Shown: piece by piece, positions 4,450-56,959 of the stretch
Numbering within the stretch: the first letter of the stretch is position 1
How the letters are laid out: each line of letters begins with the position of its first letter
Assembly: GCA_038248895.1 (NCBI GenBank)
Contig: JBBRWZ010000002.1
Span: forward strand, 9,847-73,846
DNA from: Candidatus Limnocylindria bacterium
GTDB taxonomy: Bacteria > Chloroflexota > Limnocylindria > QHBO01
Length of the DNA stretch: 64,000 nt
Direction: 5' to 3'
Made by a program: the position numbers and the translations under genes
The notes under the pieces: model-generated
Seen by the model: the letters and a program-made list of their open reading frames with translations, nothing else
Databases searched by the model: none
Told to the model about the DNA's origin: nothing

Positions 4450-6033
4450 ATGACCGAAACGCCTCCCGGAGTCACGCTCACCGCCCAGGCCGACCACGTC
4501 GACGAGGTGCTCACGCCGGAGGCGCTCTCCTTCGTGGCGCAGCTCCATCGGTCCTTCGCGCCCAGGCGGCGTCGCCTGCTGGAAGATCGTGCCCGGCGGC
4601 AGGCGCGCCTCGATGCCGGCGAGCTGCCCGACTTCCTGCCGAACCCCATCGAGAGCCGCGATCCGGAGTGGCGCGTCGCCGCCGCGCCAGCCGACTTCGA
4701 CGACCGCCGGGTCGAGATCACCGGTCCGGCCGAGCCGAAGATGATGATCAACGCGCTGAACTCCGGCGCATCGGTCTTCATGTGCGACTTCGAGGACGCC
4801 CTCTCCCCCACCTGGGCCAACATCGTCACCGGTCACTGGGCCGTGAGCCGTGCCGTGCGGCGCGAGCTCAGCCACGAGACCGAAGCGAAGGCCTACACGC
4901 TCAACGCCGAGATCGCGACGCTCTGCATCCGACCGCGCGGCTGGCATCTGCCGGAAGCGCATGTGCTCGTGGACGGCGAGCCGATCAGCGCCAGCATCTT
5001 CGACTTCGGCATCTGGTTCTTCCACAACGCCGCCGAGCTGCTGGCCCGCGGCAGTGGCCCGTACCTCTACCTGCCGAAGCTGGAGAGCCACCTCGAGGCA
5101 GAGCTCTGGAACGAGGTCTTCGTCGCCGCGCAGCAGGCCCTCGACGTGCCGCAGGGCTCGGTGCGCGCCACCGTGCTCATCGAGACGATCCTCGCCGCGT
5201 TCGAGATGGACGAGATCCTGTACGAGCTGCGCGACCACGCGGCGGGGTTGAACGCCGGACGCTGGGACTACATCTTCAGCATGATCAAGAAGTTCCGCGG
5301 CCGCGACGACAAGGTGCTCCCGGACCGCGCGCTGGTGACGATGAGGGTCCCCTTCATGCGCGCCTACACCGAGCTGCTTGTCCAGACCTGCCACCGTCGC
5401 GGCGCGCACGCGATCGGCGGCATGGCGGCGTTCATCCCCTCACGCCGCGACGCCGACGCGAACGAGCGCGCCCTGGCCGCGGTACGCGACGACAAGGAGC
5501 GCGAGTCGCGTGACGGCTTCGATGGCACCTGGGTCGCGCACCCGGACCTCGTGCCGCTGGCGCGCGAGGTGTTCGACCGCGTCCTCGCGGAGCGGCCGAA
5601 CCAGAAGGACCGCCTCCGGCCCGAAGTCGCGGTCACCGCGACCGAGCTGCTCGACACGCACATCCCCGGTGCTCGCGTCAGCGAGGCTGGCGTGCGGGCC
5701 AACATCTCGGTTGGGCTCGCGTATCTGGCCTCGTGGCTCAGCGGCAACGGGGCGGCCGCCATCAACAACCTGATGGAGGACGCCGCCACGGCCGAGATCA
5801 GCCGCTCCCAGCTCTGGCAGTGGCGCGTCAACCGCACGTTGCTCGACGATGGGGCGGCGTTCACGGCGGACCGATACGCAGCAGTCCGCGACGAGGAGCT
5901 CGCCACGCTCCGGTCGACCACCCCCGACGCCCCGTGGGATGCTGCCGCTGCGCTCCTCGACGATCTCGTCCTGTCCGCCGAGTTCGCCGAGTTCCTCACC
6001 CTGGGCGCGTACGAGAGCCTTCTCTCCGCCTGA
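4450..6033 (+). CDS. aceB: Malate synthase A
   Basis: 527 aa, with end-to-end resemblance to malate synthase A ([63 protein letters not shown]). Confidence 0.93.
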
Positions 6034-6085
6034 CGGGGTGGCCGCCCCGTTGGCCCATGCCCGCAACGTCGCCACGCCGCCACGA

Positions 6086-6267
6086 CGTTCGATAAATCGA
6101 ACGAAATGCGCCGCTGGCGGATCGGAGGCTGGATTTGACCGATATATCGAACACGGGTGAGCGTGAGGTGCGCCGGCGCGTGGGTCTCACGCTCACGGGC
6201 GACCGATACATCGAACGAATCGAACGCGCCGGGGCCTTCGTGGGCGGATCGTTCGATATATCGGCGC
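6086..6267. promoter_or_regulatory. Nested dyad-symmetric array: four AT-rich 14-bp palindromes (consensus TTCGATATATCGAA) around an 11-bp perfect inverted repeat
   Basis: The four sites are TTCGATAAATCGAA 6088-6101, ACCGATATATCGAA 6138-6151, ACCGATACATCGAA 6202-6215 and TTCGATATATCGGC 6252-6265. The inverted repeat is GTGAGCGTGAG 6157-6167 / CTCACGCTCAC 6186-6196. All elements are symmetric about 6176/6177. The region is locally AT-rich within a GC-rich genome and lies in the 407-nt gap between aceB and the zinc-ribbon gene. Confidence 0.55.
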
Positions 6268-6440
6268 CATGCGGGCGGATCCTGTCGAAATTGACAGGCG
6301 ACGCCCGGCGATGCATGTGGTACGCTCACGCCACAACGCCCGGAAAGCCGGGCTATAGCACGCGGCACAACGACACTCCTCTCAACGGATTCGGCGAGAC
6401 AGGATCGCTGGAGCCGCTCGAGTCAAGGAGTGTTTTTCAC

Positions 6441-6785
6441 TTGTACACCTATACCGATAAGACCCTGACGTGCGTCGACTGTAACCAGGAGTTCACGTTC
6501 ACCGCGACGGACCAGCAGTTCTACGCAGACCGTCAGTTCAGCGAGCCGCGCCGGTGCGCGGCGTGCCGCGCCGCCAAGAAGGCTGCGCGTGGCGAGACCG
6601 GCGGCAGCTACAGCAGCGGCGGCGGCGGTGGGTACCGCAGCGGCGGCGGCGGGGGCGGCTACGGCGGCCAGCGCGAGATGTTCAGCGCGACGTGCGACAA
6701 CTGCGGCCGCGAGGCCCAGGTGCCGTTCCGGCCCAGCGGCTCCAAGCCGGTCTACTGCGCGGACTGCTTCGCCACGCGGCGCTAG
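6441..6785 (+). CDS. Double zinc-ribbon protein (CxxC...CxxC, Gly/Tyr/Arg-rich linker, CxxC-x17-CxxC)
   Basis: Start is TTG 6441, preceded by AAGGAG (6425-6430) with a 10-nt spacer. First module is CVDC-x24-CAAC. The linker is GGSYSSGGGGGYRSGGGGGGYGG. Second module is CDNC-x17-CADC. The tracked ORF from 6135 runs through the AT-rich palindromes and is treated as a spurious extension. Confidence 0.75.
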   Translation: MYTYTDKTLTCVDCNQEFTFTATDQQFYADRQFSEPRRCAACRAAKKAARGETGGSYSSGGGGGYRSGGGGGGYGGQREMFSATCDNCGREAQVPFRPSGSKPVYCADCFATRR

Positions 6786-38678: not shown

Positions 38679-39572
38679 ATGACGACGCTGCTCCGCCGCG
38701 CTCTTCGCGGCGCCGCCTGGGCCGTCGCGCTGCTCGCGGGCGTGGTTCTCGTCCAGGTCGTCCGGCTCCGTGGCGTCCGGCTCCTGCCCGGCTACCCCGG
38801 CTTCTGGATCAGCCACACCGTCCTGCCGTCGCGCGGCGCGCCCAGCGGTGACGCGCTGCGGTTTGTCGTCTTCGGCGATTCGACGACCGTTGGCGTCGGC
38901 GTCGACCGTCCCGAGGACTCGCTCCCCCATCGACTCGCCTGGCACATCGCCGATGCCTCGGGATTGCCGGTGCGCGTGATCAGCTTCGGCTGGGCTGGAG
39001 CGCGCATGCACGCGGTCCCGACCGATCAGATCCCACGCGCCATGCGTCCGCGCGACGCCGGCGCGGCGTCGTGGCTCGCCACCGCCGACATTGTCGCCAT
39101 CGTGGTTGGCGCCAACGACGCCACGCACCGCACGCGGCCCGCGGCGTTCCGGCGCGATCTCCGCGCCTCTTTGGCGGCGATTCGCGACGCGGTTCCGGCA
39201 GCGGACGTGGTCGTCGCCGGCATTCCGCGCCTGCGCGGCGTCCTCCGCCATCTCGAGCCACTGATCACGCTGGCCGATATCGGAGCGGCACCGTTGCGTC
39301 GCGTCCAGCGCCGCGAAGCGGCGCGAGCGGGAGTCACGTTCGCGGACCTGGCGCGCGACCTCCTCCCGCGCCTCATCGGGCGGGTGGATCGTCGAACAGC
39401 GCTCGCGTCCGACCGCTTCCATCCCGGACCGGCGGTCTACGCCGCCTGGGCGGAGGTCATTGCCGATGCGCTGCGCGCAGCAGACGTGGCTACGATGCGA
39501 CCTCGGGCGGCGGCACCTGGAGCATCGGCATTGCTCGTTCCTGACCCTCCCAGCGACGGAAGCGACGACTGA
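38679..39572 (+). CDS. Membrane-anchored SGNH/GDSL hydrolase
   Basis: Has an N-terminal TM helix (AAWAVALLAGVVLVQVV) and SGNH blocks I (VVFGDSTTVG), III (VGANDATH) and V (SDRFHPG). Its 3' end overlaps the convergent glycosyltransferase by 83 nt. Confidence 0.85.
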   Translation: MTTLLRRALRGAAWAVALLAGVVLVQVVRLRGVRLLPGYPGFWISHTVLPSRGAPSGDALRFVVFGDSTTVGVGVDRPEDSLPHRLAWHIADASGLPVRVISFGWAGARMHAVPTDQIPRAMRPRDAGAASWLATADIVAIVVGANDATHRTRPAAFRRDLRASLAAIRDAVPAADVVVAGIPRLRGVLRHLEPLITLADIGAAPLRRVQRREAARAGVTFADLARDLLPRLIGRVDRRTALASDRFHPGPAVYAAWAEVIADALRAADVATMRPRAAAPGASALLVPDPPSDGSDD

Positions 39573-56869: not shown

Positions 56870-56959
56870 GATCACCAACAGCGTGGCGGATCGGTTCGCG
56901 CTCCGCAATTGACCGATCATCGGAGACCGTAACGATCACCGAACGCCGCACCGCGTAGC

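What the first reader, a model, noticed from the sequence alone, without database searches (positions are those of the whole stretch)
6086..6267. 180-bp nested dyad: four AT-rich palindromes placed symmetrically around an 11-bp perfect inverted repeat
Seen in sequence: within the 407-nt aceB/zinc-ribbon spacer, everything is symmetric about position 6176/6177.
- GTGAGCGTGAG (6157-6167) pairs with CTCACGCTCAC (6186-6196).
- At +/-32 bp lie ACCGATATATCGAA (6138-6151) and ACCGATACATCGAA (6202-6215).
- At +/-82 bp lie CGATAAATCGAACGA (6090-6104) and its near-complement TCGTTCGATATATCG (6249-6263), a 14/15 match.

Each 14-mer is itself palindromic (consensus TTCGATATATCGAA). Centre-to-centre spacings are 50, 64 and 50 bp. 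An extra half-site, CGAATCGAAC, follows the third copy. Such AT-rich symmetric sequence is highly unusual against the ~70% GC background.

Inference: this is either a multi-operator region for a dimeric or tetrameric regulator, with the spacing suggesting looping. Alternatively, if transcribed, it is a long three-stem RNA structure.
Basis: seen in the sequence. Interest (0 to 1): 0.6.

Follow-up and report, generated by a model that had tools for sequence, protein, structure and literature searches.

The report
Four-box dispersed palindromic repeat element
The 180-bp "nested dyad" after the malate synthase gene is not a control region for its neighbours: it is one copy of a 186-bp four-box repeat scattered through this uncultured soil/sediment Chloroflexota (Limnocylindria) genome and its relatives, probably the docking array of a partner DNA-binding, nuclease-like protein whose gene the same repeats bracket in related genomes.

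Summary
There are four CGAT-NN-ATCG palindromes at 50/64/50 bp and a perfect 11-bp central inverted repeat, at window 6084-6269.

It is not unique, however. The window's genome (2.3 Mb MAG) holds at least 28 copies of the same 186-bp unit. All are intergenic and all are in register without indels. A second family (boxes CGATGAATCG, spacing 50/62/50) has about 16-25 loci.

The family is confined to one family of Candidatus Limnocylindria. The aceB to zinc-ribbon spacer of three relatives lacks it.

Neither the nested dyad nor the three-hairpin fold shows covariation within copies. The perfect central repeat is peculiar to this copy.

Instead, the outer bases of all eight half-sites change together from genome to genome. 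This holds even at one orthologous site, atpA-atpG. That pattern points to a sequence-specific dimeric protein.

In at least 8 related genomes, a ~228-aa XRE-HTH protein with a PD-(D/E)XK-like C-terminal domain is bracketed by, or abuts, these elements. Its paralogues go with different box types. RAYT transposases are absent.

Best reading: a REPIN/RAYT-like pairing of repeat and partner gene, built on a different protein. Binding and mobility are inferred, not shown.

The parts
6084..6269 (+). One full copy of the 186-bp four-box repeat element (family A). The orientation is set by the asymmetric boxes 2 and 3.
   Evidence: nhmmer and Infernal profile match: E 5.9e-43 and E 1.9e-36. It aligns in register with 25 other copies (A1).
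6087..6102 (.). Box 1, GTTCGATAAATCGAAC (core CGATAAATCG 6090-6099).
   Evidence: The CGA and TCG core columns are invariant in 26 copies.
6137..6152 (.). Box 2, GACCGATATATCGAAC (core 6140-6149), 50 bp after box 1.
6157..6196 (.). Central segment with arms GTGAGCGTGAG and CTCACGCTCAC. The family consensus is GCACGAG...CTCACGCTC, which is mostly not self-complementary.
   Evidence: Match is 11/11 here but 4-8/11 in the other 26 copies. Invariant columns G78, A83, T104, C105, G108 and C109.
6201..6216 (.). Box 3, GACCGATACATCGAAC (core 6204-6213), 64 bp after box 2.
6251..6266 (.). Box 4, GTTCGATATATCGGCG (core 6254-6263), 50 bp after box 3.
6060..6083 (+). Short C-rich tandem repeat (period 8, about 3 copies, CCGCCACG) abutting the left end. 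It is a weak example of the left-end tandem repeats seen at 16 of 28 copies.
   Evidence: TRF. Enrichment against a 3.6% background gives P = 1.7e-16.
6034..6049 (+). GC hairpin CGGGGTGG/CCGCCCCG directly after the aceB stop codon (6031-6033). It is not part of the repeat and is probably the aceB 3' hairpin.
   Evidence: I21.
4450..6033 (+). Malate synthase A gene (aceB), the upstream neighbour. The element starts 50 nt after its stop codon.
   Evidence: Pfam MS_TIM-barrel 6.9e-110. Orthologues in relatives.
6316..6440 (+). Conserved promoter-like TGTGGTACGCT plus a ~110-nt leader of the zinc-ribbon gene. It lies outside the repeat and is conserved in relatives that lack the repeat.
   Evidence: Alignment with G002, G004 and G009.
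6441..6785 (+). Double treble-clef zinc-ribbon protein gene, the downstream neighbour.
   Evidence: Pfam zf_Tbcl and zf_Tbcl_2.

Best explanation
**What it is**
The segment is one copy of a lineage-specific, non-coding, 186-bp dispersed repeat.
- It has four 16-bp palindromic boxes (G-NN-CGAT-NN-ATCG-NN-C) at a fixed 50/64/50 spacing, plus a conserved central motif.
- It lies where it does because the element landed or persisted in the aceB to zinc-ribbon spacer of this lineage, not because those genes need it.

**How it most likely works**
- The boxes are double-stranded-DNA recognition sites for dimers of a family-specific partner protein.
- That partner is ~228 aa, with an XRE-type helix-turn-helix and then a PD-(D/E)XK-like nuclease-fold domain.
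- In related genomes the partner gene is bracketed by the same elements. Each paralogue goes with its own box 'dialect' or family.
- The relationship therefore works like REPIN/RAYT: many non-autonomous repeats plus one single-copy partner gene that recognises, maintains and probably spreads or homogenises them. The enzyme, however, is unrelated.

**Shown versus inferred**
- Shown:
  - the repeat family and its rigid architecture;
  - no support for an RNA or hairpin structure from covariation;
  - concerted change of all half-sites between genomes;
  - bracketing of the partner gene;
  - gain, loss and decay at orthologous sites.
- Inferred: that the protein binds the boxes, that its nuclease domain is active, and that it moves or converts the elements.

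**What the confidence covers**
The stated confidence is for the partner-binding mechanism. That the segment is a member of a dispersed repeat family is near certain (above 0.95).
For: **Repeat family**
- 28 full copies are in register in the window's genome. Mean column identity is 74% and median pairwise identity 62%, with the CGA/TCG cores invariant.
- A second family with 50/62/50 spacing is also present.
- Among 41 genomes searched (the window's own plus relatives), 18 have it, all but a few weak hits within one family.
- More than 105 loci in public genomes carry it, nearly all named Candidatus Limnocylindria or Chloroflexota.
- 97 of 111 foreign copies have no net length change.

**DNA recognition rather than RNA**
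- No covariation within copies.
- The only strong mutual information links the outer dinucleotides of all eight half-sites.
- Palindromic symmetry at those positions is kept between genomes (0.5-0.68 observed against about 0.3 expected) but not within this genome.
- Copies at the same atpA-atpG site in 5 genomes each carry their own genome's dialect.

**Partner gene**
- It is bracketed on both sides in L098, L027, L063/G006, L043, G001:C19, G008:C38 and G002:C120, with box 1 of the downstream copy overlapping the stop codon (box 2 at +47 in six genomes).
- It abuts a TTCGAT-dialect (family A) element in G004:C8 and G005:C218.
- Orthologues at 50% identity or more occur in 6 of 10 element-bearing genomes and 0 of 6 element-free genomes of the family (Fisher P = 0.026).
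- Recognition-helix variants track dialects.
- In the window's own genome, paralogue C13:38106-38843 is bracketed by two arrays of three ATGAC-N6-GTCAT boxes at 52-bp spacing. A further four-box array lies at C7:8016-8188.

**Protein**
- Pfam HTH_31 and HTH_3, plus a weak REase_MTES_1575 hit.
- AlphaFold model with pLDDT 79 and alpha-beta-beta-beta-alpha-beta topology, carrying invariant E112, D123 and E136.
- Foldseek hits to HipB and C-protein HTH domains, and to NucS/EndoMS and the R2 restriction-like endonuclease.

**Turnover**
- The element is absent from the orthologous spacer in G002, G004 and G009.
- An orthologous copy is retained in G005 at 91% identity, while a decayed copy sits at C26.
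Against: - No family-A partner gene is present in the window's own assembly. There are only paralogues at 42% identity or less.
- G009 and G015 have elements but no detectable partner, although these MAGs are 80-83% complete. Such genes usually lie on 1-2 kb contigs, and the source metagenome holds a 989-nt contig at the organism's depth with partial likeness.
- The nuclease assignment rests on weak scores: Pfam E = 0.015, Foldseek E about 2e-3, TM about 0.3. The canonical lysine of (D/E)XK is not conserved.
- No near-identical copies exist (maximum 88%) and there are no target-site duplications. Recent mobility is therefore not shown.
- The helix-to-dialect correspondence is confounded by phylogeny, and L089 is an exception.
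- Nothing here demonstrates binding.
Confidence: 0.58

Rival explanations
1. Host-serving architectural or regulatory array. The four-box units are dispersed docking sites for a domesticated XRE-type regulator or nucleoid protein. They would act as gene-end insulators, roadblock terminators or chromosome-structuring sites, and would be kept by purifying selection rather than by copying.
For: - Box spacing is strict, with no indels, while the sequence between boxes drifts.
- Many copies start 20-55 nt after a stop codon.
- One position, atpA-atpG, is retained in 5 genomes, with the boxes updated to each genome's dialect.
- The orthologous copy in G005 is as conserved as the flanking genes.
Against: - Copies decay (C26) and are present or absent at orthologous loci.
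- There is no consistent orientation or gene class.
- The partner carries a nuclease-like domain and is bracketed by the repeats, which is typical of selfish repeat and partner pairs.
- Several parallel families per genome are hard to explain by a single host function.
Confidence: 0.2
2. An ordinary MITE: a non-autonomous element mobilised in trans by a conventional (DDE or other) transposase that was not identified. The XRE-nuclease gene would be only a frequent passenger or insertion target.
For: - Palindromic termini.
- Intergenic location.
- Presence/absence polymorphism and decayed copies.
- Contigs often break at copies.
Against: - No target-site duplication of any length from 2 to 10 bp.
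- No transposase recurs next to copies in 105 foreign loci.
- No near-identical copies exist.
- The fixed geometry of element, gene and element in six or more genomes, with dialect-matched paralogues, argues for a specific partnership.
Confidence: 0.1
3. A structured RNA or single-strand DNA element: a long nested hairpin or three hairpins, acting as an sRNA, mRNA stabiliser, terminator or hairpin substrate of a single-strand transposase.
For: - The window copy folds to -91.5 kcal/mol, z = -4.47.
- Some copies lie inside operons and so must be transcribed (atpA-atpG).
- Family B has GACGCC...GGCGTC stems between its boxes.
Against: - No covariation for either structure in 26 copies.
- In this genome, boxes 2 and 3 are asymmetric and cannot form more than a 3-4 bp stem.
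- The central arms are non-complementary in most copies.
- Either orientation occurs relative to flanking genes.
- No Rfam hit.
- No Y1/HUH transposase in 25 genomes.
Confidence: 0.05
4. One reading: a local multi-operator with looping that controls aceB and/or the zinc-ribbon gene.
For: - Four dyad sites lie about 50-230 bp upstream of the conserved zinc-ribbon promoter region.
Against: - The same unit occurs at 28 or more unrelated loci, including convergent gene ends.
- Relatives keep the promoter and leader without the unit.
- No promoter-like site lies inside it.
Confidence: 0.03

Closest known systems
REP/REPIN elements with their RAYT (REP-associated tyrosine transposase) genes (PMC3116915, PMC3337134, PMC5581495)
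   Same: - Many short palindromic, intergenic, non-coding repeats.
- A small partner gene flanked by the repeats.
- Several distinct repeat families per genome, each tied to its own partner paralogue.
- Apparent vertical persistence and co-evolution.

These features are as listed in PMC3337134.
   Different: - The partner is not an IS200-like HUH/Y1 transposase. PF01797 is absent from all 25 genomes searched, the window's own included.
- Instead it is an XRE-HTH plus a PD-(D/E)XK-like protein.
- The unit is a 186-bp array of four 16-bp dyads at fixed spacing, not a REP doublet hairpin.
- No hairpin covariation is seen, which suggests double-strand rather than single-strand recognition.
Bacterial MITE-type foldback repeats (Correia/NEMIS of Neisseria, ERIC/IRU of enterobacteria, BIMEs); named from my own knowledge.
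   Same: - Length of 100-200 bp.
- Overall dyad symmetry.
- Intergenic and intra-operon locations.
- Presence/absence polymorphism between related genomes.
- Lineage restriction.
   Different: - No target-site duplications (Correia elements duplicate TA).
- Conservation is concentrated in four phased boxes rather than along the arms.
- Box sequence changes in concert between genomes.
- A dedicated bracketed partner gene is present.
Controller (C) proteins and HipB-type XRE repressors binding tandem dyad operators (structural neighbours 1y7y, 2b5a, 4pu4)
   Same: The partner's N-terminal domain has this fold. Such proteins bind 14-20-bp palindromes as dimers, often at two adjacent operators and cooperatively.
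   Different: Those operators are single-locus and autoregulatory. Here the sites number in the dozens and are dispersed, and the HTH is fused to a nuclease-like domain.
NucS/EndoMS and the R2 restriction-like endonuclease (PD-(D/E)XK fold)
   Same: They are the best structural neighbours of the partner's C-terminal domain. The alpha-beta-beta-beta-alpha-beta core carries acidic residues at the expected strands.
   Different: Scores are low (E about 2e-3 to 3e-2). The signature lysine is not conserved, and no activity is known.

Membership tests
REP/REPIN-RAYT system | High-copy, short, palindromic, extragenic repeats. | tested here: met
   28 family-A copies and about 16-25 family-B loci, all intergenic by my gene calls.
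REP/REPIN-RAYT system | The partner gene is a RAYT (HUH/Y1 transposase, Pfam Y1_Tnp PF01797). | tested here: not met
   0 of 25 genomes match PF01797, while the control genomes do ring.
REP/REPIN-RAYT system | A single-copy partner gene flanked by its repeats, with each partner paralogue tied to one repeat type. | tested here: met
   - Bracketing in L098, L027, L063/G006, L043, G001:C19, G008:C38 and G002:C120.
- Abutting in G004:C8 and G005:C218.
- Own paralogue C13 is bracketed by a different box type.
- The family-A partner is not assembled in the window's genome.
REP/REPIN-RAYT system | The repeat doublet forms a hairpin maintained by compensatory change. | tested here: not met
   Pairing equals that of shuffled controls for both candidate structures.
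MITE (miniature inverted-repeat transposable element) | Target-site duplication flanking the copies. | tested here: not met
   A scan of all boundary offsets and lengths from 2 to 10 bp found no excess over cross-copy controls.
MITE (miniature inverted-repeat transposable element) | An autonomous parent element with the same ends that encodes a transposase. | tested here: inconclusive
   - Element-gene-element units exist, but the gene is an XRE-HTH/nuclease-like protein of unknown activity.
- No known transposase recurs beside copies.
MITE (miniature inverted-repeat transposable element) | Presence/absence polymorphism at orthologous sites. | tested here: met
   - The aceB to zinc-ribbon spacer is empty in G002, G004 and G009.
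- G005:C16 has a copy where G000:C26 has a decayed one.
Structured non-coding RNA family | Covariation supporting a conserved secondary structure; a fixed strand relative to transcription; a known Rfam model. | tested here: not met
   no covariation; both orientations; no Rfam match. Transcription itself could not be tested: no RNA run covers this organism.
Local operator array (classical regulon sites) | Sites at a consistent position and orientation upstream of regulated promoters, conserved with the target gene in relatives. | tested here: not met
   All flanking-gene configurations occur, including convergent ends. The unit is absent from the orthologous spacer while the promoter and leader are conserved.
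PD-(D/E)XK nuclease superfamily (for the partner's C-terminal domain) | An alpha-beta-beta-beta-alpha-beta core with D on strand 2 and (D/E)-X-K on strand 3. | tested here: inconclusive
   - Topology and invariant E112, D123 and E136 fit.
- Foldseek hits NucS/EndoMS and R2 RLE at E 2e-3 to 3e-2.
- Pfam REase_MTES_1575 scores E = 0.015, below the cut-off.
- The K position is E, D or I.

The most novel reading that the evidence does not exclude
Limnocylindria may carry a second, independently evolved kind of 'repeat population plus single-copy partner' system, analogous to REPIN/RAYT.

- Several co-existing families of phased multi-box elements (50/64/50, 50/62/50, 52/52/52) would each be recognised on double-stranded DNA by its own XRE-HTH/PD-(D/E)XK paralogue.
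- That paralogue would copy, home or gene-convert the elements and co-evolve with them.
- The locus-specific tandem repeats piled up at the elements' left ends would then be scars of repeated staggered cleavage and fill-in by the nuclease.
Probability: 0.3. Interest if true: 0.8.

Novelty: new variant of a known kind. Interest (0 to 1): 0.55.

Why it matters
**Annotation**
The segment should not be read as an aceB or zinc-ribbon operator or riboswitch. It is a repeat that also breaks assemblies of these MAGs.

**Biology**
- REPIN/RAYT is so far the one well-described case of a long-lived, vertically inherited repeat population tied to a single-copy partner gene.
- A look-alike relationship built on an unrelated HTH-nuclease protein would show that this lifestyle evolved more than once.
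- The features that make it distinctive:
  - it appears to act on double-stranded, phased dyad boxes;
  - it has several co-evolving families per genome.
- It also offers a natural data set of protein-DNA specificity 'dialects'.

**Side clue**
The strong one-sided association with in-situ tandem-repeat expansion may be a clue to how short tandem repeats arise next to protein-bound or cleaved DNA.

Tried and rejected
- **RAYT/IS200-type partner.** PF01797 is absent from 25 genomes.
- **Target-site duplications.** None at any offset or length.
- **Recurrent transposase next to copies.** Clustering all ORFs within 2.5 kb of 105 foreign loci gave none. The largest cluster was response-regulator receiver (REC) domains. 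The sigma-54 activator flanked by copies in L098 has no orthologue in the window's genome.
- **Nested-dyad and three-hairpin RNA/DNA structures.** No covariation.
- **Known RNA families.** None.
- **Sigma-70 promoter or intrinsic terminator inside the element.** None.
- **Plasmid origin.** No blastn match.
- **Transcription.** Only the source sediment metagenome holds this organism. The one RNA run shares only conserved gene fragments.
- **Family-A partner gene in the window's assembly.** Not found. Only paralogues C13, C69, C37 and C49 are present. Synteny with the G001 partner locus is also not assembled.
- **Literature.** No paper on repeats in Limnocylindria. MTES_1575 appears only in domain surveys.

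Full report
**1. Observation**

- The sequence at window 6084-6269 is as described.
- Four palindromic boxes have cores at 6090, 6140, 6204 and 6254, so the spacing is 50/64/50. The perfect 11-bp inverted repeat is at 6157-6167 and 6186-6196. The repeat finder returns the same families.
- The motif TTCGATATATCGAA with up to 3 mismatches occurs only at these four places in the 64-kb window. Shuffles give 0.36 expected, and 0 of 100 shuffles reach 4.
- The neighbours are malate synthase A (4450-6033) and a double treble-clef zinc-ribbon protein (6441-6785).

**2. It is a dispersed repeat, not a unique control region**

- The window is C2:9847-73846 of a 2.3-Mb, 70.6% GC MAG in 129 contigs.
- Genome-wide, the motif occurs 112 times at up to 3 mismatches, almost always as quartets spaced 50/64/50.
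- I extracted 28 loci. A profile search gives 28 full copies above 80 bits, plus weaker and decayed ones.
- All full copies stack without gaps over 186 bp:
  - mean column identity is 74%;
  - median pairwise identity is 62% and the maximum 88%;
  - the CGA and TCG cores and a few central positions are invariant.
- The consensus is dyad-symmetric about its centre, with 59.6% complementarity. Boxes 2 and 3 are direct copies of one another, which gives the unit a polarity.
- A second family has boxes CGATGAATCG/CGATTCATCG in alternating orientation and 50/62/50 spacing. It has 16 strong loci and about 25 in total.

**3. Distribution**

- A sequence-only covariance model (R1) finds the element in 6 of 7 other genomes of the genus and in several other genera of the same family. 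In other families of the class it gives only occasional marginal hits.
Nearly all are titled Candidatus Limnocylindria, Chloroflexota or 'Chloroflexia' MAGs from soil catalogues.
- No paper on such repeats in this class was found.

**4. Context**

- By a GC3-based gene call, all copies are intergenic. They occur in tandem, divergent and convergent gene configurations and in either orientation. Many begin 20-55 nt after a stop codon.
- There is no target-site duplication.
- In element orientation, the left end abuts locus-specific, mostly C-rich short tandem repeats in 16 of 28 copies. The background for random intergenic positions is 3.6%, giving P = 1.7e-16. The right end shows this in 4 of 28.
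- These tandem repeats differ in copy number between orthologous copies of the window's genome (G000) and G005.

**5. Orthologous sites**

- aceB followed by the zinc-ribbon gene is syntenic in G002, G004 and G009. None of them has the element.
- The zinc-ribbon promoter-like TGTGGTACGCT and the ~110-nt leader (window 6316-6440) are conserved there.
- The nearest relative, G005, is 80-88% identical at the nucleotide level. Comparison with it shows three outcomes:
  - it shares orthologous copies, for example C34 with G005:C18 at about 91% identity;
  - one G005 copy corresponds to a decayed remnant at G000:C26;
  - several element-bearing spacers are rearranged.
- Copies are therefore gained, lost and decayed on the timescale of species divergence.

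**6. RNA or hairpin readings**

- The window copy folds well as RNA (-91.5 kcal/mol, z = -4.47). The minimum-energy fold has three hairpins.
- Across 26 copies, the nested dyad pairs in 66.4% of cells against 67.2% in column shuffles, with 465 of 500 shuffles at least as high. The three-hairpin fold pairs in 66.4% against 66.6%. My own left/right cross-copy test agrees.
- The perfect central repeat is unique to this copy: 11/11 here against 4-8/11 in the others.
- There is no Rfam match at gathering or E ≤ 1 thresholds.
- No RNA data exist for this organism.

**7. What does covary**

- In 121 copies from many genomes, the only strong mutual information links the two bases outside each CGAT core, in all eight half-sites at once.
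- Genomes have 'dialects': TT/AA here, and CT/AG, GC/GC, GG/CC or AC/GT elsewhere.
- Palindromic symmetry at these positions holds between genomes, at 0.5-0.68 observed against about 0.3 expected. It does not hold within this genome.
- An element sits at the same place in five genomes, starting at the atpA stop codon and ending just before atpG. In each it carries that genome's dialect.
- This is what recognition by one sequence-specific dimeric protein per family would produce, with specificity drifting between lineages. The alternative is copy turnover or gene conversion within genomes.

**8. Partner gene**

How it was found:
- Clustering ORFs near 105 foreign copies gave no transposase. It did give a four-member cluster of a ~228-aa protein.
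- Notes from earlier agents of this scan had proposed an XRE-HTH/PD-(D/E)XK partner. I treated that as a lead and tested it.

Position relative to the elements:
- The gene is bracketed on both sides by four-box elements in L098, L027, L063 (the same as G006:C6), L043, G001:C19, G008:C38 and G002:C120. The G002:C120 case has family-B-type boxes.
- The geometry is fixed. Box 1 of the downstream copy overlaps the stop codon, so box 2 sits at +47 in six genomes.
- The gene abuts a TTCGAT-dialect element in G004:C8 and G005:C218.

Distribution:
- Orthologues at 50% identity or more occur in 6 of 10 element-bearing genomes and 0 of 6 element-free genomes of the family (P = 0.026).
- Recognition-helix variants go with dialects...STLNR with CT, STVRR with GC, STLRR with GG, STERR with TT, and STVGR with family B. 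There is one exception.

The window's own genome:
- It lacks the family-A orthologue.
- It has paralogues at C13, C69, C37 and C49.
- The C13 paralogue is bracketed by two arrays of three ATGAC-N6-GTCAT boxes at exactly 52-bp spacing. A four-box array of the same kind lies at C7:8016-8188. The pattern occurs 74 times against 9 for the reversed control.
- Homologues in public data are named only 'XRE-family/helix-turn-helix' proteins of Limnocylindria and mostly lie on 1-2 kb contigs. This fits genes flanked by assembly-breaking repeats.
- The source metagenome has a 989-nt contig at this organism's depth with partial likeness to G005's partner gene.

**9. The protein**

- The N-terminal domain matches Pfam HTH_31 and HTH_3. 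Residues 107-157 give a sub-threshold REase_MTES_1575 hit at E = 0.015.
- The AlphaFold2 model, built from a 7-sequence alignment, has mean pLDDT 79. It shows a five-helix HTH domain followed by an alpha-beta-beta-beta-alpha-beta core.
- Foldseek matches the N-terminal domain to HipB and C-protein repressors. It matches the C-terminal domain to NucS/EndoMS and to the restriction-like endonuclease of R2 elements, at E 2e-3 to 3e-2.
- Invariant E112, D123 and E136 sit where PD-(D/E)XK acids are expected. The lysine position is not conserved, so catalytic competence is open.
- RAYT (PF01797) is absent from all 25 genomes searched, the window's own included.

**10. Conclusion**

- The finding is real, but it is one member of an undescribed four-box repeat family.
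- The best-supported mechanism is dialect-specific binding of the boxes by a bracketed XRE-HTH/nuclease-like partner. In logic this is REPIN/RAYT-like (features per PMC3337134), but it fails the defining RAYT test.
- Binding, cleavage and mobility are inferred.
- A host-serving architectural role remains possible, about 0.2. A conventional MITE with an unknown transposase also remains possible, about 0.1.
- An effect on aceB or the zinc-ribbon gene is at most incidental.

Noticed in passing
window 6316-6440: The promoter-like TGTGGTACGCT and a ~110-nt leader of the double zinc-ribbon gene are conserved in G002, G004 and G009. The leader includes the hairpin GCCCGGAAAGCCGGGC (6338-6353) and repeated ACAACG motifs. 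No Rfam family matches. It may be a conserved 5' UTR element of this widespread but uncharacterised gene.
   Followed up: partly
G000 contigs C10:38768-38953, C27:5594-5778, C97:5393-5576, C95:3212-3394, C8:7221-7405, C8:11498-11679, C4:8201-8385 and others (outside the window): A second four-box family (B). Its boxes CGATGAATCG/CGATTCATCG alternate in orientation, with 50/62/50 spacing and GACGCC...GGCGTC stems between boxes. It has 16 strong loci and about 25 in total. A matching partner paralogue bracketed by such boxes exists in G002:C120.
   Followed up: partly
G000 C13:37949-38068 and 38934-39053; C7:8016-8188 (outside the window): A third box type (ATGAC-N6-GTCAT / ACGAC-N6-GTCGT) at exactly 52-bp phasing. 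It brackets the genome's own XRE-HTH/nuclease-like paralogue (C13:38106-38843) and recurs as a four-box array on C7.
   Followed up: partly
left flanks of 16 of 28 family-A copies, e.g. G000 C39:7008-7100, C1:30952-31040, C6:54601-54660; window 6060-6083 (weak): Locus-specific short tandem repeats (period about 8-12 or 18-20) abut the box-1 end far more often than chance (P = 1.7e-16). Their copy number varies between orthologues in G005. The mechanism is unexplained.
   Followed up: partly
L015:2970-3150, L040:3530-3715, L049:5130-5312, L078:1-200, L095:2480-2690: In five other Limnocylindria genomes an element fills the atpA-atpG intercistronic gap. It starts at the atpA stop codon, so it must be co-transcribed with the ATP synthase operon. 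The window's genome instead has an acidic low-complexity C-terminal extension of atpA (C42:4711-5015).
   Followed up: partly
window 6052: The independent Logan contig of the source metagenome lacks one base here relative to the MAG contig. This is an intergenic homopolymer-type difference.
   Followed up: no
window 56913-56923: An earlier first-reader note flags a CCGATCATCGG palindrome in another spacer of this window. Its half-site resembles the repeat boxes (CCGAT), but it is a single site with different spacing.
   Followed up: no
G000 C37:18600-18900 (outside the window): Upstream of another partner-type paralogue (C37:18898-19689) lies a ~200-bp tandem duplication. It is rich in palindromes such as CTCCGATACCGA/TCGGTATCGGAG and CCGACCGAAATCGGTC. 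This may be yet another box family.
   Followed up: no
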